A stretch of 64,000 nt of DNA from Candidatus Krumholzibacteriota bacterium (GTDB lineage Bacteria; Krumholzibacteriota; Krumholzibacteriia; Krumholzibacteriales; Krumholzibacteriaceae), in assembly GCA_016932415.1 (NCBI GenBank), contig JAFGCX010000034.1, positions 9,002-73,001 on the forward strand, in the 5' to 3' direction. Shown here piece by piece: positions 33,100-63,136 of this stretch. A program made the translations under genes and the position numbers. Below the pieces are notes generated by a model that was not told where the DNA came from, did not search any database, and was given only the letters and a program-made list of their open reading frames with translations. Numbering within the stretch: position 1 is the first letter of the stretch; the number at the start of each line of letters is the position of its first letter.

Positions 33100-33117
33100 T
33101 GTGATACAGGTAATATT

Positions 33118-36304: not shown

Positions 36305-36341
36305 CTGACTTTTGTACGGGAAAGCATCGAAAGGAGAGGAT

Positions 36342-36812
36342 ATGGCGATCGAGAGAAATGGAAAGTTGATAGGGACCGGCATGAAACTGGCCGTAGTCGT
36401 CGGCAGGTTCAACGAACTGGTAACGGGGCATCTGTTGTCGGGGGCCCTGGATTGCCTGATACGGCATGGCGTAGATGACGGGGATATAGTGATCTACAGG
36501 GTCCCGGGATCATTCGAAGTCCCGCAGGCCGCGAGAAAAGCGGTAGAGACCAAGGTCGACGCTGTTATATGCGTCGGCACCCTGATAAGGGGAGATACTC
36601 CGCATTTCGATATACTGGCCAGCCAGGTCGTCAGGGACCTGTCAAGTGTAGCGATCGAATCGGGAAAACCGGTCACATTCGGCATTATAACTGCCGATAC
36701 GCAGGAGCAGGCTCTTGAAAGAGCCGGTAGTAAAGCGGGAAACAAGGGATGGCAGGCCGCCCTTTCGGCGATCGAGATGGCCAGTCTCTGGAAAGAGATC
36801 GAGAAGGGATGA
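36342..36812 (+). CDS. ribH: 6,7-dimethyl-8-ribityllumazine synthase
   Basis: GKLIGTGMKLAVVVGRFNELVT... canonical RibH; ATG 36342 after a GGAGAGGA RBS is preferred to the 36312 track start. Confidence 0.9.
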   Translation: MAIERNGKLIGTGMKLAVVVGRFNELVTGHLLSGALDCLIRHGVDDGDIVIYRVPGSFEVPQAARKAVETKVDAVICVGTLIRGDTPHFDILASQVVRDLSSVAIESGKPVTFGIITADTQEQALERAGSKAGNKGWQAALSAIEMASLWKEIEKG

Positions 36813-40832: not shown

Positions 40833-40906
40833 TGTGGAAAGGGTCCAGGATCAGTTTGCCTGCCGATCTGCCGGACCCCGGCGAGGATATCAAGAAAGGG
40901 TTTTAC

Positions 40907-43474: not shown

Positions 43475-43580
43475 GAGAATTTTCTTCCAATCTCCCGGTA
43501 ATTATTGTTATTCTCTCGGAACGATTGTTCCTGTCGAGAAATCAGAACGTTGATGCACAGATTATGGAAAGGTGACGTAA

Positions 43581-47101: not shown

Positions 47102-47105
47102 GGAT

Positions 47106-49197: not shown

Positions 49198-49212
49198 AAA
49201 AGGACGACCGGT

Positions 49213-50097
49213 TTGAAAGATCAGATTCTTGACGTGATCATACTTAACTGGAACGGCGAGGACGTGATCGGCCAGTGTCTCGAATCGCTTGAAAAGGTGA
49301 AATCTCCACCTCTGAGGATAACTGTCGTCGATAACGCCTCGACTGACTCCTCGGTCGAAATGATCAGGGAGAGGTTTCCCGAAATCGAACTTCTGATCAA
49401 CGACAGCAACCTTCTTTTCGCCGAGGGGAACAATGTAGGGATCAGAAAGGCGATGGAGAGGGGTGGACAGTACATTCTCCTGCTGAACAACGATACGGAA
49501 GTCGATCCCGATTTCGCGCGGAGGATGATGGAAGCTGCCACCGTTCCCGGCATAGGGATCGTGGGACCGAAGATATATTTTTTTGATGACAGCGATCGGA
49601 TCTGGTATGGAGGCGGTGAATTCTTTCCCGGAATCTGGATACCAAAGCACAAGGACCTGAGGAAAAGGGACAGTGATTCAGATGGCAGGAGCGTTGAGAC
49701 CGGGTGGGTGACAGGGTGCGCGATGCTTGTCAGGAGAGAAGTGTTCGAGGATATAGGGCTTCTGGACAGGTCGTACAGGATCTATTGCGAGGATATTGAT
49801 TTTTGCCTGAGAGCAAAAAAGGCCGGATGGAAGTGTTATTATGAAGAGTCAGCCAGAGTATGGCATAAGGTCAGTTCAAGCAGCGGAGGAGGAATGACTC
49901 CCTTCAAGCTGGAAAACCGTATTGCCAGTACTAACAGGCTTTTTATCAGGTTCAGGTCGCTCTGCTGGCGCCTTTTCTTTTTTCCGGCGCATCTGCTTAT
50001 ATTCCTGTCGGTTCTGGGAGTACTGCTTGTCACTGGCAGATGGGCGCTTCTCAGGGGGGCCCTCAGGGGCGCGATGAGAGTGGTATCTTTCGATTGA
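49213..50097 (+). CDS. Glycosyltransferase family 2 (WbbL/rhamnosyltransferase-like)
   Basis: DVIILNWNG, VVDNASTD, LLLNNDTEV motifs. Confidence 0.8.
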   Translation: MKDQILDVIILNWNGEDVIGQCLESLEKVKSPPLRITVVDNASTDSSVEMIRERFPEIELLINDSNLLFAEGNNVGIRKAMERGGQYILLLNNDTEVDPDFARRMMEAATVPGIGIVGPKIYFFDDSDRIWYGGGEFFPGIWIPKHKDLRKRDSDSDGRSVETGWVTGCAMLVRREVFEDIGLLDRSYRIYCEDIDFCLRAKKAGWKCYYEESARVWHKVSSSSGGGMTPFKLENRIASTNRLFIRFRSLCWRLFFFPAHLLIFLSVLGVLLVTGRWALLRGALRGAMRVVSFD

Positions 50098-50317
50098 TTC
50101 CGTTGCTTCGGGGACGCGGCCCGCCATGCGTATCTCTTCCTGAATCCGCAAATCATCCGTTCTCCGTGACCGGTTCCGGAACGATCGGTGTCCCGATCCC
50201 GCCACGCCACGCGGGAGAACCGGCAGGTAAAGATGATAGATTTTGAAGGTTTACTAGGATAGTGGAAAATGTTATTATTATTGAAATTGTAAAATATAAC
50301 CTTTGAGGAGGCTGTAT

Positions 50318-52789
50318 TTGTCAAAAAATATCAGATCTGGCGATCAGAAGCGGCGCGAGTTTGATCCGGATCAGTTTCTCGATAATGCTGCCGGTTGGCG
50401 AAGGGGTATTCTGGTCGCGCTATTTCTTGTCGTTGTGCTGGCGATCGTCATGCCGGAATTGATCTTTCATGGGGATATTTTTCTTGTTCCCGACACAAAG
50501 GCTCCGATCAGTTTCAGCGAAGTCGGCAGGGAATATCTTGAATCGGGAAAATATCCTTTGTGGAACCCGTATATATTCTGCGGAATGCCGAGTTATCCCA
50601 GCCTGTCGTATACTCCGTATGTCTATCCGATCGCCTATGTGACTTATATTCTTCAAAGATATCTCGGATTCCCCGAGATGACATGGCTGCTGGTCCATTA
50701 CATCCTGGCAGGAATGGGAATATATCTTCTTCTCCGTTCCTTTGGGGTGAGGAGTTCGATCTCGATGCTGGCAGGTGGCCTTTTCATGATCATGCCTAAT
50801 CTTGTCGCGAACGGAGCTAACGGGCATGGTTCCCAGGCGTGCGCGGTCGCATATATGCCCTACGTATTTCTGTTCTGCAGGAATATATTGACCGGCAGAG
50901 GAAGGGTCGTAAACACTGCCTTTCTCGCCATTGCCCTTGGTTTTCAGATGCTGAGGGGGCATGTTCAGATATCGTATTATACATATCTCATCACAGGCCT
51001 TCTTTTTATTATGGAGACGATCCGCCTTGCCCGGACGGGAAAGGGGAAAGAGATCGCGGTGAACTCTGGATTCATTTTCGCGGCGGTCATTCTTTCGGCA
51101 GGTATAGCGGCAGTGCTGATCTTTCCGGTGAGGGAATATGCCGATTATTCGATACGAGGCGGAACAGGCGGGGGGCTGGACTATGATTACGCCACCGGGT
51201 GGAGCCTTCCTCCGAAGGAATTGCTTACCCTAATCTTTCCGTGGGCGTCAGGTTTCGGAAAAATGACATACTGGGGCGGGATGCCTTTTACCGATTATCC
51301 GAATTATCTCGGGATTGTCACTGCGGTCTTTTCGGTTATCGGTTTTTTTATCGTACGCAGCAGATGGAAGTGGTATCTGGCCGTGATCATCATAGTGGCG
51401 ACTTTTGTCAGTTTTGGCAGGTTTATGCCGGTCCTGTACGACCCGCTCTTCAGGCTTCTGCCCTTTTTCAATAAATTCCGTGTCCCGGTGATGATCCTGA
51501 TTGTACAGCAACTGGCCGTTACAGTCCTTATGGGACTGGCTATAGAGGAATATCTTCAGCTGGTTGCCAGGGACGAGCTGCCAGCGATCCTTAAAAAAGA
51601 AAGTTTAAAATGGGGCCTTCTCGCGGCGGTCGCCCTCTTTCTCCTCGTCATCGCCGCTTCAGGCAGCATAAAACAGGATCTCGCGGCAAGCGAGGCGATA
51701 AGAAGCAGGGTCCGTCCAGAGTGGATAATGATGGCAGTCTCAGCCTATTCGTCTGATCTGGTGAGAACTTTATTTTTTCTCGTCGCGACCATAGCCACTC
51801 TCTTTTTCGTATCCTGGAAGAGGCCGAAGGGCTCTCTTGCCATCATCATCCTTTCAGTCCTGTTGCTTTTTGATATTATTTCCGTGGACCGATCGATCGT
51901 GCATCCGGAAAGTACGTGGAACAACAGCGGGTACAGGATCGTCAGACCGGTAACGGCGAGGGAAAGGTACAAGGAACCCGGTGTCATGGCGAAATATCTA
52001 GCCGCGGACACCACTTTTTTCAGGGTCTTTCCCGTTCCCGCTTCAAGGCCTGGAAGCTGGAACCACAGCACTTTCCCTTTCAGCGACAATAGCTATATGA
52101 TGTCGGGGATATTCTCCATGGGGGGATATCACGCAGCCAAGCTCAAAAACTACCAGGATGTGATGGATCTTCTTTTCGCTACATTCAACAGGGGCGTCGT
52201 TCCGAAACAGATATTGAATATGCTCGGAGCGAAGTATTTTCTGTCGATGCATCCGGTCTTCCCGGAAGGATCGGAATATCCTCTGATCTATCAGAAAGAT
52301 AAAAACTACATCTACAGAAATCCAGAGGCTCTTCCCAGGGTCTATTTCGTCGACAGGATCAAGTTGATGACAAAAGAAGACGCGCTCCTTTCGCTGACGT
52401 CGAATGCATTTGATCCCTCACGCGAAGTGATCCTGCAGGCGATGCCCGATGGAGAGATAGATTCAGCCGGAGGAAGCAGAGCCGAGATCACGGCGTATGA
52501 TCTTAACACGATCAATATAGAGGCTCATGTCGAAAAGTCATGTATAATGGTCGTCAGCGAGGTAGACTATCCCGACTGGAAAGTCACCATTGACGGCAGA
52601 GAAGGCGATATCCTGACGGCGAATTACTGTTTAAGAGCGATAGAGCTTCAGCCGGGAGAACATCGGATCGAATTCACATTTGAATCCCCGGTCCTGAACA
52701 GATCACTGATGCTTTCGATAATCTCCATCGCGATAGCTCTGTCAACCGTTATCATCTCATTTCTCGTCACTGGCAGAAAGGGGGATTGA
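50318..52789 (+). CDS. YfhO-family GT-C membrane glycosyltransferase
   Basis: About 825 aa polytopic membrane protein with YfhO-like N-terminal motif GKYPLWNPYIFCGMPS and large C-terminal extracytoplasmic domain; TTG 50318 six nt after GAGGAGG is preferred over the track start 50303, which overlaps that RBS. Confidence 0.7.
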   Translation: MSKNIRSGDQKRREFDPDQFLDNAAGWRRGILVALFLVVVLAIVMPELIFHGDIFLVPDTKAPISFSEVGREYLESGKYPLWNPYIFCGMPSYPSLSYTPYVYPIAYVTYILQRYLGFPEMTWLLVHYILAGMGIYLLLRSFGVRSSISMLAGGLFMIMPNLVANGANGHGSQACAVAYMPYVFLFCRNILTGRGRVVNTAFLAIALGFQMLRGHVQISYYTYLITGLLFIMETIRLARTGKGKEIAVNSGFIFAAVILSAGIAAVLIFPVREYADYSIRGGTGGGLDYDYATGWSLPPKELLTLIFPWASGFGKMTYWGGMPFTDYPNYLGIVTAVFSVIGFFIVRSRWKWYLAVIIIVATFVSFGRFMPVLYDPLFRLLPFFNKFRVPVMILIVQQLAVTVLMGLAIEEYLQLVARDELPAILKKESLKWGLLAAVALFLLVIAASGSIKQDLAASEAIRSRVRPEWIMMAVSAYSSDLVRTLFFLVATIATLFFVSWKRPKGSLAIIILSVLLLFDIISVDRSIVHPESTWNNSGYRIVRPVTARERYKEPGVMAKYLAADTTFFRVFPVPASRPGSWNHSTFPFSDNSYMMSGIFSMGGYHAAKLKNYQDVMDLLFATFNRGVVPKQILNMLGAKYFLSMHPVFPEGSEYPLIYQKDKNYIYRNPEALPRVYFVDRIKLMTKEDALLSLTSNAFDPSREVILQAMPDGEIDSAGGSRAEITAYDLNTINIEAHVEKSCIMVVSEVDYPDWKVTIDGREGDILTANYCLRAIELQPGEHRIEFTFESPVLNRSLMLSIISIAIALSTVIISFLVTGRKGD

Positions 52790-52790
52790 G

Positions 52791-53507
52791 TTGAAGGCTC
52801 TGGTCGTGATTCCAACATATAACGAGAACGAGAATATCAGAAATATAATCAAAGCCGTTCTGAGTCAGGATGAGGGGGTGGATATTCTCGTCATAGACGA
52901 TAATTCTCCGGATGGTACCGGAGCTATCGTTGATGAACTAATCGTATCGGAACCGAGGATCCATGTCATCCACCGGAAGGGGAAGCTTGGGCTGGGGTCT
53001 GCGTATATAGCCGGATTCAAATGGGCGCTGGCCAATACTGACGCGAAATATATTTTCGAGATGGACGCGGATTTTTCCCATGATCCTGGCGACATAAAAT
53101 TTTTTCTCGAGGCGATCAAGGATAACGATCTCGTCATTGGATCGAGATATCTCAATGGGATCCGGGTCGTAAACTGGCCGCTCAGCAGATTGATCCTCAG
53201 CACCGGAGCGAATATATATACCGGAATCGTTACCGGGCTTCCCCTGAAAGATTCAACCGGCGGGTTCAAATGTTTCCGTCGCGAGACACTGGCCGGCCTT
53301 CCTCTTGATACGATCAGGAGTGACGGCTACTCTTTTCAGATAGAGATGAATTTCTTCTGCTGGAAAAAAGGTTTCAGGATAAGGGAAATACCAATAATAT
53401 TTTCCGACAGGAGAGTCGGCGTTTCGAAGATGTCAAAAAAGATAATATGGGAAGCGGCGTTCATGGTCTGGCGCCTGAGGTTCATGTCCCCGCGGCGATG
53501 GAAGTAA
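52791..53507 (+). CDS. Polyprenol-phosphate mannose synthase-like GT2 (Ppm1/DPM1-like, soluble catalytic domain)
   Basis: VVIPTYNENENI, IDDNSPDGT, EMDADFSHDP (DAD) motifs; 238 aa with no C-terminal TM; TTG start. Confidence 0.8.
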   Translation: MKALVVIPTYNENENIRNIIKAVLSQDEGVDILVIDDNSPDGTGAIVDELIVSEPRIHVIHRKGKLGLGSAYIAGFKWALANTDAKYIFEMDADFSHDPGDIKFFLEAIKDNDLVIGSRYLNGIRVVNWPLSRLILSTGANIYTGIVTGLPLKDSTGGFKCFRRETLAGLPLDTIRSDGYSFQIEMNFFCWKKGFRIREIPIIFSDRRVGVSKMSKKIIWEAAFMVWRLRFMSPRRWK

Positions 53508-55583
53508 ATGGATCTTTCAATAATAATCATTACGCACAACAGCCTTGTCCCGGTCGAAAAGTGTCTGGAATCCCTCGAGGCCTGCCCTCCCTCGGGCAGC
53601 TACGAGACGATCGTCATCGATAACGCCAGCAGTGACGGTTGCGCCGACATGATAGAGGAGTCGTTTCCCAGATGCATGGTGATCAGAAACGAGGAGAACA
53701 GGGGATACTCCCGCGGGGTCAATCAGGGGATCGATCTTTCGATTTCGGAATTGATACTCATACTCAATCCCGATATCGAGGTGAGAGACGGTTCCATCGA
53801 CAGGCTCGCCCGGTTCATGAACGATAATCGATCGGCAGGTATGGCTGGATCGAAGCTCCTCTATCCCGATGGACGGCTACAATATTCCTGCCGGGCTTTT
53901 TACACAATAAAGGCGCTTTTTTTAAGGCGGACGTTCCTTGGAAGGATCTTTCCGAAGGCGCGCGCTTTGAGAGAACATCTGATGATCGACTATGATCATG
54001 AGCAGGCGCGCAAAGTCGACTGGCTCATAGGCGCCTGTCTGATGGTCAGGCGGGAAGCGATAGAAAAGGTCGGCAAGATGGATGAAAGGTTTTTTCTCTA
54101 TTTTGAAGATACCGACTGGTGCTACCGGATGAATCAGCACGGATGGGATGTCTATTACATTCCCGATTCGGTGATGACGCACCGGTACGAAAGATCAAGC
54201 GCGAGGTCGGTATTTAAAAAGCCTTTTCTCATGCATCTTCTCAGTCTTCTGCGATATTACGAGAAATGGAATAAAATATTCTACTTTTTCAGGCGGCACC
54301 GGGGCGCCCTGAAATCAATCATATTCGCCGCGTCCGACCTTGTCGCGGCGAACGCGGGATTCTTCATAGCGTATTATCTGCGTGGTCTGTTCCAGTCCCT
54401 GTTTACAAACAGCCTGTATCCTCTCGACTGGTACGCTTTCTTTATCTACTTCTATAATTTTATCTTCTTTTTCACATTCCTCTTCGGCGGTCTCTACCAG
54501 ATCAGGAGGGAGACCGGGGCGGCCCTGGAGTTCTCGAGAGTCGCCAGGTCGGTCTTCGCCTCTTTCGCGATCCTGCTGGGAGCGACATATCTTACCCGGA
54601 TAAGGATATATTCCCGGGCTGTCCTTGGAGGACAGGCGCTGTTGAGCCTTATTCTCGTCTTTGGTTTCAGGAGGATCATCCGGCTTGTTCACAACCAGCT
54701 TGTCAGAGCCTCTTTTGACCTTAAAAGGGTCATCCTGGCAGGTGACGAGGATGAGGTAGAACGGTTCAGGGGACTTGTGCAGGCTGATCCGCATCTGGGA
54801 ATCGATGTCGTCGGAGATATTTCCGGTGGACCGGGATCTATCGGAAAGATGGAAGATCTCGAGAGTATAATCGACAGGTTCAAGATACAGGAGGTGCTGA
54901 TACTTCCATCGTATGTCGAGAGGGGCCTGATCTTTCCGTTCCTTTGCATTCATGGTACGCGGATGCTTGAGATAAGAATAGTGTCACCGGTCGCCAGATT
55001 CATGGGCAGGGAGGTCAGGGTCCAGAAGATCGGTGATAGTTATATGTTTTCCATCGAAAGAGGGACCCAGTTTCTACTTCTGAGATTATTGCAGCGTTTG
55101 TCCGATATCGTCACTGGCGCTGTTTTTCTCCCCCTGTCGGCAGTCTGTCTCTTTTTTTTCAGGATATCCGGAACGGCAGGTCGAAAAGCGTCGGTCTTTT
55201 CGGAAAAAAGGACAGGGTACAGGGAAAAGACAATAGACTGGCCGAGAATCATGACTCGATCAGGCAGGGAGGGATCGGACATGATCAAACCGGCACTCTG
55301 GGCCGATCTGCTGTTCGGGAGACTGGCTCTCGTGGGACCGCCACCTTCACCGGTATCTGATGACGGTGGTCACGCCGGCCCTGACGGAGGAATGAGGCCG
55401 GGGATAAGCGGAAGATGGAGGATCTCTCCCGAAGCTGACTGGAAAAAATCTTTCGAAAACGAGGTAATCGAAACTAGGACACGTTCAATCACTGATTATC
55501 TGGAGATACTTTTCAGGTCTGTCGGCATGTTTTTTTCAGGCAGATATCCGGAATGGTATTTTAACAAGGGGGATAACCCGTGA
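53508..55583 (+). CDS. Fusion protein: N-terminal GT2 glycosyltransferase + C-terminal membrane domain resembling polyprenyl-phosphate sugar phosphotransferase (WbaP/EpsB-like, divergent)
   Basis: N-terminal IIIITHNS, IDNASSDG, DxD-type GT2 about 260 aa; then 4-5 TM helices, a linker, and a Bac_transf-like C-terminus (PALWADLLFGRLALVGPPPSP, compare consensus LPQLxNVLKGDMSLVGPRP) in which the usual DE dyad and KFRTM motif are not recognisable. Confidence 0.6.
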   Translation: MDLSIIIITHNSLVPVEKCLESLEACPPSGSYETIVIDNASSDGCADMIEESFPRCMVIRNEENRGYSRGVNQGIDLSISELILILNPDIEVRDGSIDRLARFMNDNRSAGMAGSKLLYPDGRLQYSCRAFYTIKALFLRRTFLGRIFPKARALREHLMIDYDHEQARKVDWLIGACLMVRREAIEKVGKMDERFFLYFEDTDWCYRMNQHGWDVYYIPDSVMTHRYERSSARSVFKKPFLMHLLSLLRYYEKWNKIFYFFRRHRGALKSIIFAASDLVAANAGFFIAYYLRGLFQSLFTNSLYPLDWYAFFIYFYNFIFFFTFLFGGLYQIRRETGAALEFSRVARSVFASFAILLGATYLTRIRIYSRAVLGGQALLSLILVFGFRRIIRLVHNQLVRASFDLKRVILAGDEDEVERFRGLVQADPHLGIDVVGDISGGPGSIGKMEDLESIIDRFKIQEVLILPSYVERGLIFPFLCIHGTRMLEIRIVSPVARFMGREVRVQKIGDSYMFSIERGTQFLLLRLLQRLSDIVTGAVFLPLSAVCLFFFRISGTAGRKASVFSEKRTGYREKTIDWPRIMTRSGREGSDMIKPALWADLLFGRLALVGPPPSPVSDDGGHAGPDGGMRPGISGRWRISPEADWKKSFENEVIETRTRSITDYLEILFRSVGMFFSGRYPEWYFNKGDNP

Positions 55584-57907
55584 GACGGCTCTGTTCATTT
55601 TTCATCCTGATGTCGATACTGTCCACCGGCCAGGCAACGGCAGATCCAGGGGACTGGAATCTATTTCTCGATGCCAGCGCCGTAAACAGGATCACCTGTC
55701 TCGGCGACAGTCTCTGGTGCGGAACCAACGGAGGAATCCTGCTTTTCGACCTCACTGATTCGACTATGACACAGTTCTATTCCGGGCTGGGATTGAGATC
55801 GAATGAGGTGTCGGCTGTCGCGCTTGATCCAGAAGGCGTCCTCTGGGCGGCATTCAGGGGGGAGGGCCTGGTAAGGATCGAAAATATAGCGACAAACCCG
55901 GTAGTGAGCCATTACAACGAAAAATCGACACTCATCCTCAGCGACAGTATCAATTGCCTTCTCTCTGTCGATGAGGATGTATATTACGGCTCTGACAATG
56001 GAATAGCCAAATTTTTCGACAAGAGCCATTCCCTGGAACCGAATCTGTCCGATAACCTTGCTGGAAAAAGGATAAACGACCTGCTTCTTGACGATGAAAA
56101 CCGGTTGTGGGTCGCTCATGAAGATGGCGTGGCAAGCTTTGGCCGCGACACGTTCATTTTTACTGACTATCCCATAGGCACAGCGTTTTCGATCACTTTG
56201 CATGAAGGGATGATATATGCCGCAACCTCGACAGGGATAGCGAGATTGAACGGCGAGTCATGGGAGCAGTACGGGACGACTTTTCATAATGGTCTTCTCC
56301 CGGTAAGTATAGCTTCAGGTGGAGGCGAGATATACGCGGCGACCGAGGAGAGAGCGTACAGGCATAACGGGTCATACTGGGAGAGTATCGCCACCGCGCA
56401 GATGAAGGCTATGTTTCTCGACAATTACAGGATCGGTCAGTATCATCTCCGCTCTGTCGCGGTCGACGGGAGAGGTGACCCCTGGATCGGGGGAAGACTC
56501 CCGAGCGGTTCGTCGAGGGGAAGTTATATCTCCGGATTCAATGGCGAAGAATGGGTCAACAGAGCCCTGCCGACATTGAGTCAGAATGACGTCATTGCTA
56601 TCGGAATCGCCCCCGGAGGAGCGGTATGGTCGAGCACTCTCTACGGGATCAACTACAGATCCGGTACCGGTGACTGGATCAGGTATTCAAAGATAAGATC
56701 GGACACGGGAAATGATGACGCTCTTTCATATTTTGCCTACAACCTGGCGCTGCTTCATGATTCCGGTAATATCCTGTGGTGCAATTCTCTCAATTACGAC
56801 CTCGATATGATCGACCTGGGAAATATCTTCGATAAGGATGATGATATCTGGCGGCATTTCGCGATAGAGGATGGCAATACGATCACGACTGACAGGTTTG
56901 TAAAGGCAAAGGAAGACCCGGCCGGGAACAGGTGGTTTCTTTCCGATGACGATTATTACGAATCGAGCGGGATATGGGGAATAAATATCACCGACCAGTC
57001 AGCGGATCAGTGGTTCGCCGTAAATCCCCTTCTCAATCCTTCGATGAAAGGCGGCAATATCTTCGACTGCGTCTTCGATCAATTCGGAGTATATCTGGCC
57101 ATAAAGGGATTTGGAGTCCAGTACTGGAGAACGGGCGGGTTCAGCTGGAGTACACTTACTTCGGAGACCGGTGATATATGGCTCACGCTGATGGATGAAT
57201 CGAACCTTGTCAGTACGGAGATAGAAGCTATAGAGGTTGGAAGCGACGGAACGGTATGGGTCGGGACGGGAGGCGGCCTGGTCAGGTATCGCCAGGGTGA
57301 AATAGAGGTGTATACTGAAAAGGGAGAAGAGACCAATTACGGATTGATCGGACTTTCCGTGAGCGATCTCGAATTCGACAGTTTCGGAAATCTCTGGGTC
57401 GCGACAGACAAGGGACTGAACAGGATCGATGCCGACGGGATCATAGACGCGGCGTTTACTACCGCTACTTTCTGGGAGAACAATATACAGGCATTCTATT
57501 CAGAGTCGGTCATATCACCCCTTCCGAGTCATGTATGCCAGGTGCTGGCGTGTGATGCCGATGAGGATCTTCTCTGGATAGGGACCGACAGGGGCCTTGC
57601 ATCTTTCGACGTGAGGCCACTGGTACAGGTTTCGATCCCACTGTCTCGCGCTATACTCTACCCCAACCCGATACATATCGGCCGGGGTGATTCATCCCTT
57701 AAGATCTCACGCATCTCGGGAATCGTCGATATAAGCGTCTATAATCTGGAAGGAGAACTGGTGCATGAGATAGAGGGTGTCGCCGAGGGAGAGGATGCCT
57801 GGGATCTGCTTACGATAAACGGGTTCACTGCCCAATCCGGGATCTATATAGTAAGAATATCCGGAAGTTCCGGCATAGAGACAAGAAAGGTTGCGATTAT
57901 CAGGTGA
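55580..57907 (+). CDS. Secreted beta-propeller repeat protein with T9SS C-terminal sorting domain
   Basis: Signal peptide; many W/Y-rich sensor-propeller-like repeats (WVGT..GL..Y; LW.GTD.GL); C-terminus ILYPNPIHIG...ISVYNLEGELVHEIEG...AQSGIYIVRISGSSGIETRKVAIIR matches the T9SS type-A CTD pattern; GTG start overlapping the upstream stop. Confidence 0.7.
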   Translation: MRRLCSFFILMSILSTGQATADPGDWNLFLDASAVNRITCLGDSLWCGTNGGILLFDLTDSTMTQFYSGLGLRSNEVSAVALDPEGVLWAAFRGEGLVRIENIATNPVVSHYNEKSTLILSDSINCLLSVDEDVYYGSDNGIAKFFDKSHSLEPNLSDNLAGKRINDLLLDDENRLWVAHEDGVASFGRDTFIFTDYPIGTAFSITLHEGMIYAATSTGIARLNGESWEQYGTTFHNGLLPVSIASGGGEIYAATEERAYRHNGSYWESIATAQMKAMFLDNYRIGQYHLRSVAVDGRGDPWIGGRLPSGSSRGSYISGFNGEEWVNRALPTLSQNDVIAIGIAPGGAVWSSTLYGINYRSGTGDWIRYSKIRSDTGNDDALSYFAYNLALLHDSGNILWCNSLNYDLDMIDLGNIFDKDDDIWRHFAIEDGNTITTDRFVKAKEDPAGNRWFLSDDDYYESSGIWGINITDQSADQWFAVNPLLNPSMKGGNIFDCVFDQFGVYLAIKGFGVQYWRTGGFSWSTLTSETGDIWLTLMDESNLVSTEIEAIEVGSDGTVWVGTGGGLVRYRQGEIEVYTEKGEETNYGLIGLSVSDLEFDSFGNLWVATDKGLNRIDADGIIDAAFTTATFWENNIQAFYSESVISPLPSHVCQVLACDADEDLLWIGTDRGLASFDVRPLVQVSIPLSRAILYPNPIHIGRGDSSLKISRISGIVDISVYNLEGELVHEIEGVAEGEDAWDLLTINGFTAQSGIYIVRISGSSGIETRKVAIIR

Positions 57908-59331
57908 GAAGCTCGAGCAATAAGAAAATACTGGTAGTAGGGGCTGGCGAAGCCGGCCGGATGGTCCTGGGAGAGATAGAAGGACACCCGGAGATCGAAT
58001 CATCGGTGATCGGATTTCTTGATGACGACGATGAACTGGCGGGAAAAACGGTGCGATCCGTTCCCGTTCTAGGTACGACTGACCGGCTAGAGGAGATCGC
58101 CGCTTCGATGGATATCGATGAGGTCATCATCTCGGTGCCGACTGCTCCGGGACGATTCGTGCGGGAGATGATAAGGCGGTGCCGCAGGGCGGGAGTCGTC
58201 TACAGGATAGTACCCGGTGTGATGGAGATAATAAAGGGAGATGTCCACATCGACCAGATCAGGGATGTGCGCGTCGAAGATCTGCTTGGACGCGAAACGG
58301 TCAGTTTTGACCTGGAGTCGGCAAGATTGGAACTTTCCGGCAGGAAGATCCTGGTCACGGGGGCGGGAGGTTCGATCGGTAGCGAGCTTTGCAGGCAGCT
58401 CGCAAGAGTCGGACCGGAAGAACTGATCATACTCGGAAGGGGCGAAAACAGGATATTCATGATAGAGGAGGAGCTCAGGTCCTCTTTTCCCGGTTTGAGG
58501 ATATCTACTGTCATCTGTAACCTCACCGATATGGCAAAGATAAAAAGGATGATGAAGGAGATCGCTCCCGGTATCGTATATCATGCGGCGGCCCACAAGC
58601 ATGTCCATTACATGGAAAGGGACCCTTCAGAGGCGGTCATAAACAACGTCGCCGGAAGCATAAATGTAATCAGAGCCGCTGAAGAGTGTGGAGTCGAACG
58701 TTTCGTGTTCATATCGACCGATAAGGCGGCGGATCCCGATGGAGTGATGGGAGCGACAAAGAGAATAGTAGAGCTTTACCTCGGGTCTTACAGCGATCAC
58801 AGCAGGTGCAGGTATATCACTGTGAGATTCGGAAACGTGATAGGGAGCGCCGGAAGTGTTGTTCCTCTTTTTCTCAGGCAGATCGGATGGGGAGGTCCGG
58901 TAACGGTAAGTGACGCCCAGGCGACAAGGTTTTTCATGACGGTAAAAGAAGCTGCTTTTCTTGTCATAAGGTCATCGCTCATCGGCAACGGAAAAGAGAC
59001 ATTTATCCTCGATATGGGAGAGCCTCTGAATATCTATGAGATGGCGAAAGATATAATAATGTTGACCGGTCATGAACCGGAGACCGAGATCCCGATCAGG
59101 ATGTCAGGCTTGCGTGACGGGGAAAAACTCCATGAAGTCCTCGTAAGTAAAAATGAACAGCTTAAGCCTTCCGGTGAGGACAAGATCCTCATTGCCAGTT
59201 CAATTGAGAGACCTCCAGAGGGCCTGGAACGTATGATATCGGAGATGATCGAGGCCGCGGGAAAAGGGGACGATGGCGCAGTGCTTGGATTGATGTCGAG
59301 TATCATTCCCGGATTCGACCGCGGGGACTGA
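57904..59331 (+). CDS. Nucleotide-sugar 4,6-dehydratase (CapD/PglF/WbpM-like, Polysacc_synt_2), soluble form
   Basis: N-terminal CoA-binding-like domain, then extended-SDR domain with second Rossmann TGAGGSIGSEL; GTG start. Confidence 0.8.
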   Translation: MRSSSNKKILVVGAGEAGRMVLGEIEGHPEIESSVIGFLDDDDELAGKTVRSVPVLGTTDRLEEIAASMDIDEVIISVPTAPGRFVREMIRRCRRAGVVYRIVPGVMEIIKGDVHIDQIRDVRVEDLLGRETVSFDLESARLELSGRKILVTGAGGSIGSELCRQLARVGPEELIILGRGENRIFMIEEELRSSFPGLRISTVICNLTDMAKIKRMMKEIAPGIVYHAAAHKHVHYMERDPSEAVINNVAGSINVIRAAEECGVERFVFISTDKAADPDGVMGATKRIVELYLGSYSDHSRCRYITVRFGNVIGSAGSVVPLFLRQIGWGGPVTVSDAQATRFFMTVKEAAFLVIRSSLIGNGKETFILDMGEPLNIYEMAKDIIMLTGHEPETEIPIRMSGLRDGEKLHEVLVSKNEQLKPSGEDKILIASSIERPPEGLERMISEMIEAAGKGDDGAVLGLMSSIIPGFDRGD

Positions 59332-59354: not shown

Positions 59355-60311
59355 GTGGTGAATATTGAGATCGAATATGATATCGACAAGGAAGAGATAA
59401 GCGAATTCATCGGATCATGCCGGGGTGCGACCTATTTTCATTCCCCTTCCTGGATGAATATCCTGGTCCGCGCTTTTCCGCGTTTCAGGGGAGGATGGAT
59501 AACGGCACGTGACGGGAAGTCGCTACGCGGCGTCATGCCTTTTATAAGGATAGACAGGGGAGCGGTATTCTCGATATGGTCGATGCCGTTCGGCACCTAC
59601 GGAACGCCTCTTTGCGAGCGGGAGAGCGTCAGGCTGGCTCTCGTCGACAGGTTTTCACAGATAGCCGGATCGTCACGCTGCGCGGAGGCTGTGGCATCTC
59701 TTTTCGAGATCGACGGCGGCGACGGGAGTATGATCGGAAAGGCCGTGGTGGACAGGAACGAATGCAGCCTGATAATGCTCGATGGTGATTTCACCGAGTA
59801 CAGGTCGAAGAGGCTCAGCAGGAAAAAAAGGCAGATATGCAACGGATGCGAGAAGGATGGAGTAGAGATCAGGCTGATTGAAAAAGACGAAGACCTGTCG
59901 ATTTTCTATGACATATATTTTTCGGGGTCGACGGGGTGGGGAGGCGTCCACCCCTATCCCAGGGAGTTTTTCAGGGAGCTTTTTAAAAGAAGGGATGAAG
60001 GGATCCTTTTCTGGGGAGCGTTCGTCGAAGGACGGATGCTTGGAGGACATATCGATATTTATTATAAATCGATGGCGCAGGCATGGCAGGCCGGGATCTC
60101 GGACGAGTCCCATTCGGCCGGGATCGCCTGCTACCTCGTGTACAGGGCAGTAGAAGAGGCTTATAAAAGGGAAGTAAAGGTCTTCAATCTCGGAAGCAGC
60201 TGCGGGGACAGCGGGATGCTGTTCTTTAAAAGATCGATGGGAGGGATCGAACACATTTATCCCGAACTGAGAATTCGAAAGAAATGGTGGAAATGGCTCA
60301 CGAGGAAATGA
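59355..60311 (+). CDS. FemAB-family / GNAT-fold acyltransferase (Acetyltransf_6-like)
   Basis: Sequence pattern (YFHSPSWMNIL..., G(G/A)HIDIYY, VKVFNLGSS) resembles FemAB/BioF2-like GNAT proteins found in some polysaccharide loci; assignment from memory only. Confidence 0.5.
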   Translation: MVNIEIEYDIDKEEISEFIGSCRGATYFHSPSWMNILVRAFPRFRGGWITARDGKSLRGVMPFIRIDRGAVFSIWSMPFGTYGTPLCERESVRLALVDRFSQIAGSSRCAEAVASLFEIDGGDGSMIGKAVVDRNECSLIMLDGDFTEYRSKRLSRKKRQICNGCEKDGVEIRLIEKDEDLSIFYDIYFSGSTGWGGVHPYPREFFRELFKRRDEGILFWGAFVEGRMLGGHIDIYYKSMAQAWQAGISDESHSAGIACYLVYRAVEEAYKREVKVFNLGSSCGDSGMLFFKRSMGGIEHIYPELRIRKKWWKWLTRK

Positions 60312-61831: not shown

Positions 61832-63136
61832 TTGAATCGAAAAAAGATATTGATGATGATAAATTTTTTCCCGCCATCGGCGGGAGGAGGAGTGTACCGT
61901 CCATTATCATTTGTACGGTATCTTTCCGGATCAGGATGGGACGTGACGGTGATCACCCCGAGACCCGGGGAATTCTGGATAAATGATCCCGGACTGGAAA
62001 GCAAAGTACCGCCGGAAGTCCGTGTTATAAGGACGAAGTCTTTCTCCGGTCAGAGGATCCTCGCAAACCTTGGAAAAGGAAAGCAGAGTGGCTCATCGAG
62101 ATCTTCATCACGCTTCGGCCTGATGAGAAAAGCCGGTGAGTTCGTGCTGATTCCCGACACCTATGTCGGATGGGTCCCTTTTGCGGCCGGCGCGGCCGCG
62201 AAGCTATGCCGGTCTGAAAGATTCGATATGATATATTCGACAAGCCCGCCGGACAGCACCCATCTCGCAGCGGGAAGGACCTCGAGAAGGTTTCATCTTC
62301 CATGGGTAGCGGATTTTCGTGATCCATGGATCTCTCTCTATCTCAGAGATCCCGCGACGCCTATCCACGCGGCGATCCATAAAAATCTGGAAAAGCGGGT
62401 TTCAGCCGCGAAGCTCGTTCTCGTGACGACTACATGGCAGAAAGAGAAGCTTCTCTCTCTTTTTCCTTCATGCCGGGTCGAGAAGATCCCGAACGGTTAT
62501 GAGGAAGAGGATTTTCCCGAAGGTTTGGCGATCCCGGACGGCGACGGAAAGTTGAAGATCGTGCACGCCGGGATGCTTACCCTTGGAAGAAGTTCGCGGC
62601 CTTTTCTCGAAGGATTGAGGCTTTTTCTCGACCGAAGACCCGGTGCCGGAGAATCTGTAGAAGTGACCTTTATCGGACCAAGGGAGTCGGCCAATGAGGA
62701 ATGGGTCGGAAGGCTCGGCCTCGGTGGCAACGTCAGGTTCCGTGATAATATCGCTCACAGCGAATGCGTAAATATCGAGAGGGCAAGTGATCTGCTTCTG
62801 CTGATAAAACATGACGATCCGAGATATACAGGTCTGGTTCCCGGAAAACTTTTTGAATATATAGGAGCTAGGCGTCCCATTCTCGCCATCGCTCCCGATG
62901 GAGAGGCAGCTTCGATAGTCAGGGATCTGAATCGGGGAGAGGTTGTTCCGGCAGGTGACAGGGAGGCTGTCGCGGCAGTTATCGATAAGTTCTTTATCCT
63001 GCATAAAGAGGGCAGGCTGGGCAGTTCATATTCCCTCGGCGTGGTCAGGGAATATTCACGCCGTGTTCTCGCTGGAAAGCTCGAACTGTTGTTAAGGAGT
63101 ATCGCGGGAAACGACCATAGTCTCGGAGAGGCGTGA
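61832..63136 (+). CDS. Glycosyltransferase (GT4-like, GT-B fold)
   Basis: N-terminal glycosyltransferase-4-like subdomain (KILMMINFFPPSAGGGVYRPLSFVRYLSGSGWDVTVITP) and C-terminal GT-B half. Confidence 0.7.
   Translation: MNRKKILMMINFFPPSAGGGVYRPLSFVRYLSGSGWDVTVITPRPGEFWINDPGLESKVPPEVRVIRTKSFSGQRILANLGKGKQSGSSRSSSRFGLMRKAGEFVLIPDTYVGWVPFAAGAAAKLCRSERFDMIYSTSPPDSTHLAAGRTSRRFHLPWVADFRDPWISLYLRDPATPIHAAIHKNLEKRVSAAKLVLVTTTWQKEKLLSLFPSCRVEKIPNGYEEEDFPEGLAIPDGDGKLKIVHAGMLTLGRSSRPFLEGLRLFLDRRPGAGESVEVTFIGPRESANEEWVGRLGLGGNVRFRDNIAHSECVNIERASDLLLLIKHDDPRYTGLVPGKLFEYIGARRPILAIAPDGEAASIVRDLNRGEVVPAGDREAVAAVIDKFFILHKEGRLGSSYSLGVVREYSRRVLAGKLELLLRSIAGNDHSLGEA

What the first reader, a model, noticed from the sequence alone, without database searches (positions are those of the whole stretch)
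55580..57907. T9SS-sorted beta-propeller protein embedded in the glycosylation locus: lineage marker and candidate glycosylation target
The C-terminal about 80 aa (ILYPNPIHIG...VYNLEGELVHEIEG...GIYIVRISGSSGIETRKVAIIR) fit the type-A T9SS C-terminal sorting-domain pattern. That places the organism in the FCB superphylum or related candidate phyla. The body is made of W/Y-rich repeats like the periplasmic sensor propellers of hybrid two-component systems, but here it is a stand-alone secreted protein. Its position inside an operon-like run of glycosylation genes (start overlapping the upstream stop, stop overlapping the downstream start) suggests it may be the cell-surface protein the locus modifies. 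Alternatively it may be a lectin-like or glycan-binding component.
Basis: partly seen in the sequence, partly recalled or inferred. Interest (0 to 1): 0.55.

Follow-up and report, generated by a model that had tools for sequence, protein, structure and literature searches.

The report
Divergent PorZ homologue inside glycan operon
This gene encodes a distant relative of PorZ, the surface protein that hands a sugar-lipid anchor to the type IX secretion system, and in a group of little-known phyla it is permanently embedded among genes that probably build such an anchor, which gives a testable lead on how these bacteria attach proteins to their surface.

Summary
ORF 55580-57907 (+, 775 aa) has a signal-peptide-like N-terminus, two seven-bladed Reg_prop propellers and a C-terminal type-A T9SS sorting domain (TIGR04183 36.9 bits, cutoff 23). 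Both gene junctions are GTGA overlaps. The organism is a Candidatus Krumholzibacteriota MAG.

It is probably neither ordinary cargo nor a glycosylation target. It is a divergent homologue of PorZ, the T9SS attachment-complex protein that delivers anionic LPS to the PorU sortase. PorZ is its best NCBIfam hit (84 bits, below the 260 cutoff) and its best solved-structure match (TM 0.6, against 0.35 for sensor kinases). It aligns end to end with a bona fide PorZ (hhalign E 5e-32).

The gene occurs once in about 56 Krumholzibacteriota/Latescibacterota genomes. It almost always lies between a GT2/phosphoglycosyltransferase fusion and a PglF-like dehydratase. A FemX-fold aminoacyl-transferase follows, of the same family as VimA, which completes the T9SS linking sugar in Porphyromonas.

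Best reading (about 0.5): a PorZ-type shuttle for the glycan its own operon builds. T9SS core genes could not be checked. Novelty: new variant of a known kind. Interest about 0.55.

The parts
55580..57907 (+). PorZ-like gene (775 aa): signal peptide, two seven-bladed beta-propellers and a type-A T9SS CTD
   Evidence: ORF. NCBIfam PorZ 84.2 bits and TIGR04183 36.9 bits. AF2 model pLDDT 90.7, pTM 0.82. Foldseek top hit is PorZ 5m11. hhalign to the bona fide PorZ P0112 gives E 5e-32 over 654 columns.
55580..55642 (+). Predicted Sec signal peptide (aa 1-21, MRRLCSFFILMSILSTGQATA)
   Evidence: By inspection: a positive n-region, a hydrophobic core and an A-x-A-like end. Modelled as helix 2-14 followed by a low-confidence stretch at 15-21. 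All 48 aligned homologues have an equivalent N-terminus. No dedicated signal-peptide predictor was available.
55655..56569 (+). Beta-propeller 1 (about aa 26-330, seven four-stranded blades)
   Evidence: DSSP strand pattern of the AF2 model. Reg_prop, SGL and PorZ_N_b_propeller (21 bits, sub-threshold) hits.
56591..57610 (+). Beta-propeller 2 (about aa 338-677, seven blades)
   Evidence: AF2 model. Best Reg_prop stretch at aa 588-610. Collinear match of aa 542-771 to PorZ 5m11 residues 530-758.
57653..57904 (+). Type-A T9SS C-terminal sorting domain (aa 692-775, seven-stranded beta-sandwich)
   Evidence: TIGR04183 36.9 bits against cutoff 23. Seven strands in the model. P695, N696, P697, G725 and W741 invariant; S753, G754, Y756 and V758 nearly invariant.
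53508..55583 (+). GT2 + polyprenyl-phosphate glycosylphosphotransferase-like fusion (691 aa), stop overlaps the PorZ-like start
   Evidence: Pfam Glycos_transf_2, CoA_binding_3 and a weak Bac_transf hit (27.6 bits). NCBIfam EPS_sugtrans/WcaJ/WbaP-like. Directly upstream of the PorZ-like gene in 47 of 47 loci with enough flank.
57904..59331 (+). PglF/CapD/PseB-like UDP-HexNAc 4,6-dehydratase (475 aa), start overlaps the PorZ-like stop
   Evidence: Polysacc_synt_2 E 1.4e-98. PseB and FnlA-like. Directly downstream in 48 of 51 loci.
59355..60311 (+). FemABX-fold aminoacyl-transferase-like protein (318 aa), same family as VimA
   Evidence: PF13480. TIGR03019 61.2 bits, sub-threshold. Family profile hits FemX at E 2.3e-5. 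AF2 pLDDT 92.8. Foldseek top 11 are all aminoacyl-tRNA-dependent transferases, FemX TM 0.73. VimA matches TIGR03019 according to PMC7468200.
60284..61831 (+). Wzx-like polysaccharide flippase (515 aa)
   Evidence: Polysacc_synt PF01943. Conserved in this position.
61832..63136 (+). GT4 glycosyltransferase (434 aa)
   Evidence: Glyco_transf_4 / Glyco_trans_4_4. Conserved.
63222..64000 (+). Polytopic membrane protein, possibly GT-C-like, running off the window end (about 500 aa in relatives)
   Evidence: Translation and about 10 hydrophobic segments in the L001 orthologue. No Pfam or PDB match. Conserved position, followed by mraZ/dcw in relatives.
50303..53507 (+). YfhO-like GT-C (828 aa) and a DPM1/AglJ/PpgS-like GT2 polyprenyl-phosphate sugar synthase (238 aa)
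   Evidence: Both conserved upstream of the PGT fusion in Krumholzibacteriota, Latescibacterota and the more distant L073, L074 and L076 loci.
40832..50097 (+). Upstream part of the locus: two TMEM260-like GT-C/TPR proteins, an epimerase/dehydratase, an ArnC/PgfS-like GT2, a GT4 and a GT2
   Evidence: Conserved order in L001, L003, L005, L073 and L074.
33201..36812 (+). ribD-ribE-ribBA-ribH operon, a positional marker
   Evidence: Pfam and tblastn. Two bona fide porZ genes lie directly after ribH (L006, L075).

Best explanation
The gene encodes a divergent homologue of PorZ, the surface component of the type IX secretion 'attachment complex'. Proposed mechanism: (1) The protein is exported by Sec through its N-terminal signal peptide. 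(2) It folds into two seven-bladed propellers plus an Ig-like CTD. [quoted passage not shown] (4) There it binds the glycan or glycolipid made by the genes that flank it. (5) It presents that glycan to a PorU-type sortase, which attaches it to the C-termini of secreted CTD proteins. The flanking genes suggest how the glycan is made. A phosphoglycosyltransferase-like fusion starts it. A PglF-type 4,6-dehydratase produces an amino-deoxy-sugar precursor, and the Latescibacterota-type branch also has a DegT aminotransferase for this step. A FemX-fold transferase probably adds an amino acid, leaving a free amine, which is the kind of nucleophile a sortase needs. Wzx flips the product, and GT-C enzymes fed by two polyprenyl-phosphate-sugar synthases elaborate it. 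Shown here: the domain architecture, full-length homology to PorZ, the closest fold, a valid type-A CTD, one copy of this family per scanned genome, near-invariant synteny, and the FemX fold of the neighbour. Inferred by analogy with Porphyromonas gingivalis: steps 3 to 5, the ligand identity, the aminoacylation chemistry, and the presence of a T9SS.
For: PorZ homology: PorZ (NF052228) is the best NCBIfam family for the query (E 7e-24) and for every family member scanned (84-109 bits). The family profile aligns end to end with a bona fide PorZ (P0112, 309.6 bits on NF052228): hhalign probability 99.9 %, E 5e-32, 654 columns, CTD included. An HTCS sensor control gives E 1e-17 over 500 register-shifted columns with no CTD. 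Foldseek on a pLDDT 90.7 model ranks PorZ 5m11 first (E 9.9e-31, TM 0.59/0.61), while HTCS sensors reach TM 0.33-0.36. Bona fide PorZ proteins (280-321 bits) appear among the profile's full-length single-stretch hits, with a continuum of scores below them.
Component-like behaviour: the length is fixed at 760-800 aa. The gene appears once in each of about 56 species-level genomes.
Link to a glycan: the PGT fusion lies directly upstream in 47/47 loci, PglF directly downstream in 48/51, and a FemAB-like gene within 5 kb in 41/43. The same core is kept in lineages where the propeller protein is only 23-24 % identical (L073, L074, L076).
FemAB-like neighbour: TIGR03019 61 bits, FemX by profile, and FemX plus aminoacyl-tRNA-dependent synthases by fold at TM 0.70-0.80. 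VimA matches the same TIGR03019 family and supplies Ser/Gly to the T9SS linking sugar (PMC7468200). L076 also carries an AsnB-type amidotransferase, the enzyme class of WbpS.
Positional trace: two bona fide porZ genes follow ribH directly, and in the window the rib operon lies just upstream of the locus.
Known PorZ function: it binds A-LPS and binds PorU in an A-LPS-dependent way (PMC8545088).
Against: The NF052228 equivalog cutoff (260 bits) is missed by a wide margin (84 bits), and Pfam PorZ_N_b_propeller is sub-threshold (21 vs 27 bits). By raw HMM score, HTCS sensor propellers outscore PorZ (4a2l 1e-44 vs 5m11 5e-23), although through many short repeat matches. No T9SS core gene (porU, porV, sprA, gldKLMN) lies in the 64-kb window, and none could be searched for in related genomes. 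Four full-text searches found no paper mentioning T9SS together with these phyla. A second, canonical PorZ elsewhere in these genomes is not excluded, because the genome scan used family-specific patterns. The locus lacks WbpA/B/D/E and a VimE-type deacetylase, so it is not the Wbp/Vim pathway itself, and similarity to VimA is only at family level. The window has no DegT aminotransferase. The Bac_transf catalytic domain of the upstream fusion is weak (27.6 bits) and absent in L076. In the two bona fide porZ loci examined (organisms unnamed), porZ is not in a glycan locus. A cluster fixed next to the dcw genes could make a general envelope polymer unrelated to cargo anchoring.
Confidence: 0.5

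Rival explanations
1. It is an ordinary T9SS cargo. On this reading it is a surface or secreted glycan-binding (lectin-like) or glycan-assembly factor for the envelope polymer that the locus makes, for example holding, organising or measuring the polymer at the cell surface. It would share ancestry with PorZ but play no part in attaching other cargo proteins.
For: It fails the PorZ equivalog cutoff. It is embedded in a polysaccharide locus that stays fixed next to the cell-division (dcw) cluster, which suggests a core envelope polymer. Related double propellers in HTCS sensors bind glycans (PMC5121618). It diverges faster than most of its enzyme neighbours, as surface proteins often do.
Against: Full-length collinear homology and the domain arrangement point specifically to PorZ and away from generic propellers. 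Fixed length and a fixed position in the locus fit a machinery component better than a cargo. The FemX-fold neighbour parallels the VimA step that creates the sortase acceptor.
Confidence: 0.27
2. One reading: the protein is the cell-surface substrate that the locus glycosylates, for example O-mannosylation by the TMEM260-like or YfhO-like GT-C enzymes.
For: Tight operonic linkage. GT-C enzymes of the TMEM260/PMT type and two polyprenyl-phosphate-sugar synthases are present. Three D-S-x sequons are conserved in 33-38 of 48 homologues.
Against: The sequon count equals chance (3 vs 3.5 +/- 1.8), and the conserved ones lie within propeller repeat motifs such as GDSLW. The model has no S/T-rich linker or disordered region. 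The Wzx flippase and the PGT-like initiator indicate a lipid-linked oligo- or polysaccharide pathway, not one dedicated to a single protein. The Bacteroidota sequon may not apply in this phylum, so this test is weak.
Confidence: 0.08
3. These phyla have no working T9SS. On this reading the C-terminal Ig-like domain is a structural relic, and the protein acts in the periplasm as a glycan-binding scaffold or chaperone for the GT-C and flippase steps, or as a sensor-like regulator of the pathway.
For: T9SS core genes were not seen in the window. The full-text searches found no paper mentioning T9SS together with these phyla. The fold is shared with the periplasmic sensor domains of HTCS.
Against: The CTD passes the curated TIGR04183 cutoff in every member tested. 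Its hallmark residues are invariant across 48 sequences spanning Krumholzibacteriota and Latescibacterota: P695/N696/P697 and G725, which I take to be the loop glycine shown to be essential in RgpB (PMC11285876). CTD proteins and T9SS genes co-occur in studied genomes (PMC11285876). The protein has no transmembrane segment, kinase or Y_Y_Y domain.
Confidence: 0.08

Closest known systems
PorZ (PG1604) of Porphyromonas gingivalis, PDB 5M11; NCBIfam NF052228 'type IX secretion system anionic LPS delivery protein PorZ'
   Same: Signal peptide, two seven-bladed propellers and a type-A CTD. Almost the same length (775 vs 776 aa). It is the best structural match, including the relative domain arrangement (TM 0.6). 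A full-length collinear profile alignment links the family to a bona fide PorZ. A glycan-handling role is plausible, since PorZ binds A-LPS and feeds PorU (PMC8545088).
   Different: About 16-21 % identity, and 84 bits against a 260-bit cutoff. It occurs in Krumholzibacteriota and Latescibacterota, for which my literature searches found no T9SS report. It is fixed inside a glycan-biosynthesis operon, whereas the two bona fide porZ genes examined follow the riboflavin operon. CTD retention, ligand binding and PorU/PorQ interaction are untested.
Periplasmic sensor domains of Bacteroides hybrid two-component systems (BT4663, BT4673, BT3049; PDB 4A2L, 3OTT, 3V9F)
   Same: Reg_prop repeats and two seven-bladed propellers followed by an all-beta domain. 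These domains bind glycans. They give the highest raw HMM scores.
   Different: The query has no Y_Y_Y domain, transmembrane segment, kinase or receiver. The domain arrangement differs (TM 0.33-0.36). The alignment to an HTCS is register-shifted and lacks the C-terminal domain.
Wbp/Vim 'linking sugar' pathway of P. gingivalis and T. forsythia (VimA, VimE, VimF, WbpA/B/D/E, WbpS)
   Same: A FemAB/TIGR03019-family transferase sits next to amino-sugar genes. By fold it is an aminoacyl-tRNA-dependent transferase. That fits the step in which VimA adds Ser or Gly to create the amine that is amide-bonded to cargo C-termini (PMC7468200). GT4 enzymes are present. One related locus has an AsnB-type amidotransferase, the class of WbpS.
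   Different: No WbpA/B/D/E and no CE4 deacetylase were found. The sugar route here is PglF-type 4,6-dehydration, with DegT transamination added in the sister branch. That predicts a bacillosamine-like sugar and not a 2,3-diamino uronic acid. Similarity to VimA is at family level only, and VimA itself was not compared.
PEP-CTERM/exosortase-associated EPS loci (TIGR03019 pepcterm_femAB, TIGR03025 EPS_sugtrans, TIGR04063 stp3)
   Same: Several locus proteins have their best, sub-threshold NCBIfam hits to XrtA/PEP-CTERM-associated families. Those systems also pair a sortase-like enzyme with an EPS locus and a FemAB-like gene (PMC7468200).
   Different: No exosortase or PEP-CTERM protein was seen in the window. 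The sorting signal here is a T9SS CTD.

Membership tests
T9SS type-A C-terminal sorting domain (TIGR04183 / PF18962) | HMM score above the curated cutoff | tested here: met
   TIGR04183 scores 36.9 bits against a cutoff of 23, at aa 693-773. The Pfam version scores 23.4 against 27, just below. All homologues scanned pass TIGR04183 at 32-40 bits.
T9SS type-A C-terminal sorting domain (TIGR04183 / PF18962) | Located at the extreme C-terminus, a seven-stranded Ig-like beta-sandwich with a conserved loop glycine and C-terminal motif | tested here: met
   The AF2 model has seven strands at aa 692-774. P695/N696/P697, G725 and W741 are invariant; S753, G754, Y756 and V758 are nearly invariant; the C-terminal K-V-A-I-I-R is conserved. 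Motif importance is described in PMC11285876; the correspondence of G725 to the essential RgpB loop glycine is my inference.
T9SS type-A C-terminal sorting domain (TIGR04183 / PF18962) | N-terminal Sec signal peptide | tested here: met
   By inspection of 48 N-termini and the model helix at 2-14. No SignalP-type tool was run.
T9SS type-A C-terminal sorting domain (TIGR04183 / PF18962) | T9SS core genes (sprA/sov, porV, porU, gldK-N) in the same genome | not testable with these tools
   None lie in the 64-kb window. Only +/-10 kb around homologues could be fetched from related genomes. Literature searches found nothing for these phyla.
PorZ (NF052228 equivalog) | Score of at least 260 bits on NF052228 | tested here: not met
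   The query scores 84.2 bits, and family members 84-109 bits. PorZ is nevertheless the top NCBIfam hit for all of them. Bona fide examples score 280-321 bits.
PorZ (NF052228 equivalog) | Architecture of signal peptide, two seven-bladed propellers and a CTD, about 750-780 aa | tested here: met
   The PorZ architecture is described in PMC5121618 and PMC8545088.
PorZ (NF052228 equivalog) | Full-length collinear homology to a bona fide PorZ | tested here: met
   hhalign of A1 against P0112: probability 99.9 %, E 5e-32, 654 columns, positions 30-783 against 27-754. The HTCS control is weaker and shifted.
PorZ (NF052228 equivalog) | Closest solved structure is PorZ, with a PorZ-like domain arrangement | tested here: met
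   Foldseek: 5m11 ranks first at E 9.9e-31 and TM 0.59/0.61. HTCS sensors reach TM 0.33-0.36.
PorZ (NF052228 equivalog) | It is the only PorZ-like gene in the genome | tested here: inconclusive
   The family is single-copy in about 56 genomes. The scan patterns were family-specific, so a canonical PorZ elsewhere is not excluded. P0095, at first taken for a paralogue, is a contig-truncated orthologue.
PorZ (NF052228 equivalog) | CTD retained after secretion, binding of anionic LPS, and interaction with PorU and PorQ | not testable with these tools
   These are experimental properties (PMC5121618, PMC8545088).
Hybrid two-component system periplasmic sensor | Reg_prop propellers followed by a Y_Y_Y domain, a transmembrane helix, and HisKA/HATPase/REC domains | tested here: not met
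   Reg_prop is present, but PF07495, kinase and receiver domains give no hit. The protein ends in a CTD.
Wbp/Vim linking-sugar pathway (context of the locus) | A VimA-type FemAB-family transferase | tested here: inconclusive
   TIGR03019 scores 61 bits against a cutoff of 260. The FemX fold is matched at TM 0.73. VimA matches TIGR03019 according to PMC7468200. No VimA sequence was available for direct comparison.
Wbp/Vim linking-sugar pathway (context of the locus) | WbpA/B/E/D enzymes and a VimE deacetylase | tested here: not met
   No such families appear among the locus proteins. A PglF-type dehydratase is present instead, and DegT occurs only in the sister branch.

The most novel reading that the evidence does not exclude
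The conserved block (GT-C, GT2, GT2/PGT, PorZ-like, PglF, (DegT), FemX-like, flippase, GT-C), sitting next to the cell-division genes, may be a self-contained 'anchor glycan plus shuttle' unit for covalent surface attachment of T9SS cargo. It occurs in phyla for which my searches found no T9SS report. The sortase acceptor would be an N-aminoacylated 4-amino-4,6-dideoxy-hexosamine, not the Wbp/Vim uronic acid of Porphyromonas. The dispersed porZ, vim and wbp genes of Bacteroidota would then be a scattered derivative of this older operon. If so, the ligand of PorZ-type proteins and the chemistry of T9SS anchoring outside Porphyromonas could be read directly from one operon.
Probability: 0.3. Interest if true: 0.75.

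Novelty: new variant of a known kind. Interest (0 to 1): 0.55.

Why it matters
PorZ is experimentally characterised mainly in Porphyromonas gingivalis. The anchor glycan and its delivery route in other T9SS-bearing bacteria remain largely unknown; Cytophaga, for example, may lack A-LPS (PMC11611037). Here a PorZ homologue is genetically tied to a specific glycan pathway, including a FemX-fold enzyme of the VimA family, across at least two candidate phyla and some more distant lineages. That gives independent comparative-genomic support for the model of PorZ as a glycan shuttle. It nominates a concrete candidate ligand pathway that can be expressed and tested. It also suggests T9SS-type surface attachment may reach Krumholzibacteriota and Latescibacterota. 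For annotation, these proteins are currently named only 'T9SS type A sorting domain-containing protein' or 'ligand-binding sensor domain-containing protein', and a broader PorZ model would capture them.

Tried and rejected
1. Glycosylation-target test: Bacteroidota sequons are not enriched, so the idea is not supported.
2. Possible gene fusion of the PGT and PorZ-like genes in L010, L022, L037 and L045, suggested by long stop-free frames. Rejected: the PGT gene is in another frame with its own stop, and the open frames reflect 62-69 % GC.
3. P0095 as a second, paralogous propeller protein in Krumholzibacteria. Rejected: it lies on the same 33,243-bp contig as L063 and is an orthologue cut by the contig end.
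4. Search for further CTD proteins in 1.2 Mb of fetched loci with a family CTD HMM. Only the family itself was found. This is uninformative, because all the flanks are the same locus.
5. T9SS core genes: none in the window. No seed sequences from these phyla were available and no whole-genome access was possible, so this stays unresolved.
6. Literature on T9SS in Krumholzibacteriota or Latescibacterota: four searches returned nothing relevant. The Krumholzibacteria papers read do not mention secretion.
7. Taxonomy of the intermediate and bona fide PorZ loci (L006, L073-L076): cluster look-ups gave no or truncated organism names. A homology search with P0276 returned mainly HTCS sensors.
8. Single-sequence PDB searches for the FemAB-like and the roughly 500-aa membrane protein were empty. 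Only the family profile and the fold search were informative for the former.
9. Contig look-up of the 100 % identical P0359 to extend beyond the window: not on record.

Full report
OBSERVATION. Its start overlaps the stop of the upstream gene, and its stop overlaps the start of the downstream gene, each time as a 4-nt GTGA. An AAGGGGG Shine-Dalgarno-like motif precedes the GTG. The C-terminal 81 residues (aa 693-773) match TIGR04183, the type-A T9SS sorting domain, at 36.9 bits against a curated cutoff of 23. The Pfam counterpart PF18962 falls just below its gathering score, at 23.4 against 27. The body matches Reg_prop (PF07494) at E 1.3e-12 in four stretches. The N-terminus, MRRLCSFFILMSILSTGQATA|DPGDW, looks like a Sec signal peptide. 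All 48 aligned homologues have an equivalent N-terminus. No dedicated signal-peptide predictor was available.

ORGANISM AND CONTEXT. The window carries housekeeping genes: recA, alaS, selA, smc, ftsY and ribDEBAH. From about 38.7 kb to its end it carries a single-strand run of envelope-glycan genes. The closest homologue of the protein in a named genome (70 % identity) lies in the type genome of Candidatus Krumholzibacterium zodletonense, QTKG01 (PMC7914226). A protein 100 % identical to the neighbouring FemAB-like gene product is deposited as Candidatus Krumholzibacteriota. No T9SS core gene lies in the window.

WHAT THE PROTEIN IS. The best NCBIfam family for the query is not a cargo family. 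It is NF052228, 'type IX secretion system anionic LPS delivery protein PorZ', at E 7e-24 and 84.2 bits, far below the equivalog cutoff of 260. The same holds for every family member scanned, at 84-109 bits.

An alignment-based AlphaFold model is confident (mean pLDDT 90.7, pTM 0.82). It shows two seven-bladed propellers, at about aa 26-330 and 338-677, followed by a seven-stranded beta-sandwich at aa 692-774. Foldseek against the PDB ranks PorZ of P. gingivalis (5M11) first, at E 9.9e-31 with full-length TM-scores of 0.59/0.61. The periplasmic sensor domains of Bacteroides hybrid two-component systems (4A2L, 4A2M, 3OTT, 3V9F, 3VA6) reach TM 0.33-0.36 only. The individual folds are shared with the sensors, but the three-domain arrangement resembles PorZ. 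The PorZ structure paper describes the same distinction between PorZ and BT4663 (PMC5121618).

At sequence level the picture needs care. The family profile scores the sensor domains higher (4A2L at 1e-44) than PorZ (5M11 at 4.7e-23). The sensor score comes from many short repeat matches, whereas the PorZ match is one collinear stretch spanning the last blades and the CTD.

One protein from my first search, P0112, proved to be a bona fide PorZ, scoring 309.6 bits on NF052228 from end to end. hhalign of the family profile against P0112 gives probability 99.9 %, E 5e-32 and 654 aligned columns covering both proteins from the first blade to the last CTD strand. The same comparison with an HTCS sensor gives E 1e-17 over 500 columns, in a shifted register and without the C-terminal domain.

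An exhaustive profile search of 1.84 billion representatives shows two kinds of relatives. The first kind is long multi-stretch proteins of the HTCS type. The second is a series of single-stretch, full-length proteins of 734-836 aa. Within this second series, scores on the PorZ model form a continuum: 321, 293 and 280 bits (passing the cutoff), then 229, 114, and 59-109 bits.

I conclude, with about 0.85 confidence, that the protein is a divergent member of the PorZ lineage that the curated equivalog model does not reach. Because the cutoff is not met, I do not file it as an NF052228 member.

DISTRIBUTION AND SYNTENY. A scan of one genome per GTDB species found the family in 58 loci, which correspond to about 56 genomes. 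Every named genome is Krumholzibacteriota, UBP1 or Latescibacterota, apart from one contig labelled 'Patescibacteria group', probably a labelling error. The family occurs once per genome. The two apparent duplicates are single genes split across contig ends.

The neighbourhood is almost invariant:
- The GT2/phosphoglycosyltransferase-like fusion lies directly upstream in 47 of 47 loci with enough flank.
- A PglF/CapD-like 4,6-dehydratase lies directly downstream in 48 of 51 loci.
- A FemAB-like gene lies within 5 kb downstream in 41 of 43 loci.
- A Wzx-like flippase, a GT4 and a roughly 500-aa polytopic membrane protein follow.

In five loci with enough downstream flank (L001, L003, L005, L073, L074) the block ends immediately before mraZ-rsmH and the dcw cell-division cluster. 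The branch with about 30 % identity to the query has a DegT aminotransferase between PglF and the FemAB-like gene, in 17 loci. The window has none.

The same core recurs in more distant, unnamed lineages, where the propeller protein is only 23-24 % identical to the query (L073, L074, L076). In L076 the propeller protein scores about equally against the query and against a bona fide PorZ, and an AsnB-type amidotransferase lies upstream.

The two bona fide porZ genes I could place (L006, L075) are not in glycan loci. Each directly follows the riboflavin operon. In the window, ribD-E-BA-H lies at 33.2-36.8 kb, just upstream of the glycan locus. This is a modest positional hint that the genes share ancestry. 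Across the module, the PorZ-like and FemAB-like proteins diverge fastest, with median identities to the window's proteins of 45 % and 42 %, against 47-74 % for the other module proteins.

THE FemAB-LIKE NEIGHBOUR. Gene 59355-60311 matches PF13480 and, below threshold, TIGR03019 pepcterm_femAB at 61 bits. Its family profile finds only aminoacyl-tRNA-dependent transferases in the PDB: FemX at E 2.3e-5 and an aminoacyl-tRNA-dependent peptide synthase at 1.7e-3. A confident model (pLDDT 92.8, pTM 0.90) matches FemX at TM 0.70-0.73. It also matches the Sbb17/Sba18 synthases, crystallised in complex with streptothrisamine, at TM 0.70-0.80, and FemA. Acetyl-CoA-dependent tandem GNATs rank lower.

VimA of P. 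gingivalis and T. forsythia is reported to match TIGR03019. It determines whether Ser or Gly is placed on the T9SS 'linking sugar' that is amide-bonded to cargo C-termini (PMC7468200). The locus therefore contains an enzyme of the class that creates the sortase acceptor in the only systems where that chemistry is known. It sits beside an amino-sugar route (PglF, plus DegT in the sister branch) that differs from the Wbp route.

MECHANISM. Shown here: the architecture, homology to PorZ, a valid CTD with invariant hallmark residues, single copy of the family, fixed synteny, and the FemX fold of the neighbour.

Inferred from the P. gingivalis model, in which PorZ binds A-LPS and binds PorU in an A-LPS-dependent way (PMC8545088): the protein is exported by Sec and then by T9SS, stays on the surface, binds the glycan its operon makes, and presents it to a PorU-type sortase.

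Inferred from enzyme families: the glycan is primed or capped by an N-aminoacylated amino-deoxy-hexosamine, flipped by Wzx, and elaborated by GT-C enzymes (YfhO-like, TMEM260-like) using polyprenyl-phosphate sugars made by the ArnC-like and DPM1-like GT2s.

I give this whole chain about 0.5.

RIVALS. (a) An ordinary T9SS cargo that binds or organises the envelope polymer without serving cargo attachment (0.27). (b) A glycosylation substrate (0.08). Sequons are at chance level, 3 against 3.5 +/- 1.8, and there is no linker region. (c) No functional T9SS, with the protein acting in the periplasm (0.08). This is disfavoured by strict CTD conservation but is not excluded, because T9SS core genes could not be searched.

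WHAT COULD NOT BE DONE. I could not inspect the rest of any genome carrying the family. Presence of porU, porV, sprA and gldK-N, and absence of a second canonical PorZ, therefore remain untested. Four full-text searches found no paper that mentions T9SS together with these phyla. [quoted passage not shown]

VERDICT. The feature is best described as a new variant of a known kind: a deeply divergent PorZ homologue fixed within a conserved glycan-biosynthesis operon that also encodes a VimA-family, FemX-fold transferase. Interest is 0.55. It is not categorically new, but it gives T9SS biology a concrete and testable lead on anchor-glycan chemistry and PorZ ligands outside Porphyromonas.

Noticed in passing
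window 33201-36812; L006 9519-12268; L075 3562-10205: Two bona fide porZ genes (309.6 and 280 bits on NF052228) lie directly after ribH, and in L075 after the whole ribD-E-BA-H operon plus a methyltransferase. In the window the same rib operon lies just upstream of the glycan locus that holds the PorZ-like gene. This may be a remnant of shared gene order, with the glycan genes gained or lost in between.
   Followed up: partly
L001 20309-22328; L003 20427-22289; L005 21401-22379; L073 16801-22382; L074 16658-22466: The whole glycan module ends immediately upstream of mraZ-rsmH-ftsL-PBP-mur (the dcw cell-division and cell-wall cluster) in Krumholzibacteriota, Latescibacterota and the more distant unnamed lineages. 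This suggests a core envelope polymer and not a variable O-antigen.
   Followed up: partly
window 55580-57907 and 59355-60311, compared across L007-L076: Within the module, the PorZ-like and FemAB-like proteins diverge fastest, with median identities to the window's proteins of 45 % and 42 % against 47-74 % for the other module proteins. In L076 most other module proteins are 35-62 % identical while the PorZ-like protein is 23 % and the FemAB-like protein 25 %. The two may co-evolve with the glycan or with partner proteins.
   Followed up: partly
window 40832-43474 and 43581-46142: Two tandem paralogues of TMEM260-like (PF11028) GT-C proteins with C-terminal TPR repeats. This is the family of the eukaryotic protein O-mannosyltransferase TMEM260. 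Their substrate in bacteria is unknown to me.
   Followed up: no
window 53508-55583 and 57904-59331; L076 6232-7971: The upstream GT2 fusion carries a WbaP-like membrane/CoA_binding_3 region but only a weak, partial Bac_transf catalytic domain (27.6 bits), and L076 has none. The PglF-like dehydratase lacks the N-terminal membrane domain that I recall being usual for PglF/WbpM/CapD. The PorZ-like gene sits exactly between these two CoA_binding_3-containing genes.
   Followed up: no
L038-L047, L049, L051-L055, L057, L058, L060, L064 (for example L004 13961-15172): A DegT/PglE-type aminotransferase lies between PglF and the FemAB-like gene in 17 loci, all from the branch with roughly 26-35 % identity to the query. 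It is absent from the Krumholzibacteriota-type loci and from the whole 64-kb window. The aminotransferase step must be encoded elsewhere there, or the sugar differs.
   Followed up: partly
L076 1-1689: An AsnB-type amidotransferase (Asn_synthase with GATase domains), the enzyme class of P. gingivalis WbpS, lies at the start of the module in the lineage whose PorZ-like protein bridges the family and canonical PorZ.
   Followed up: no
L018 (DATKWS010000038.1) and L065 (CAWGCC010000021.1): A contig labelled 'Patescibacteria group bacterium' carries the complete Krumholzibacteriota-type module. A contig labelled 'uncultured beta proteobacterium' carries several ORFs with T9SS-type CTDs. Both are likely binning or taxonomy errors in the public records.
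   Followed up: no
window 1-64000: GC skew is positive in every 2-kb bin (cumulative skew rises steadily to 3.9), and nearly all credible genes are on the + strand. This is consistent with the whole window lying on one leading-strand replichore.
   Followed up: no
window 31516-33324 (-) and 31561-33060 (+): Two long overlapping ORFs on opposite strands (602 aa and 499 aa). The minus-strand ORF has no NCBIfam match, and I did not determine which one is real.
   Followed up: no
window 23878-25365: selA (L-seryl-tRNA(Sec) selenium transferase, 490 bits) is present, so the organism probably uses selenocysteine.
   Followed up: no
P0100 (1053 aa) and P0110 (965 aa): Other proteins combine PorZ-like propeller blades (125 and 39 bits on NF052228) with a FlgD_ig-like domain (PF13860) and a type-A CTD. 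This is a different, longer architecture of unknown role.
   Followed up: no
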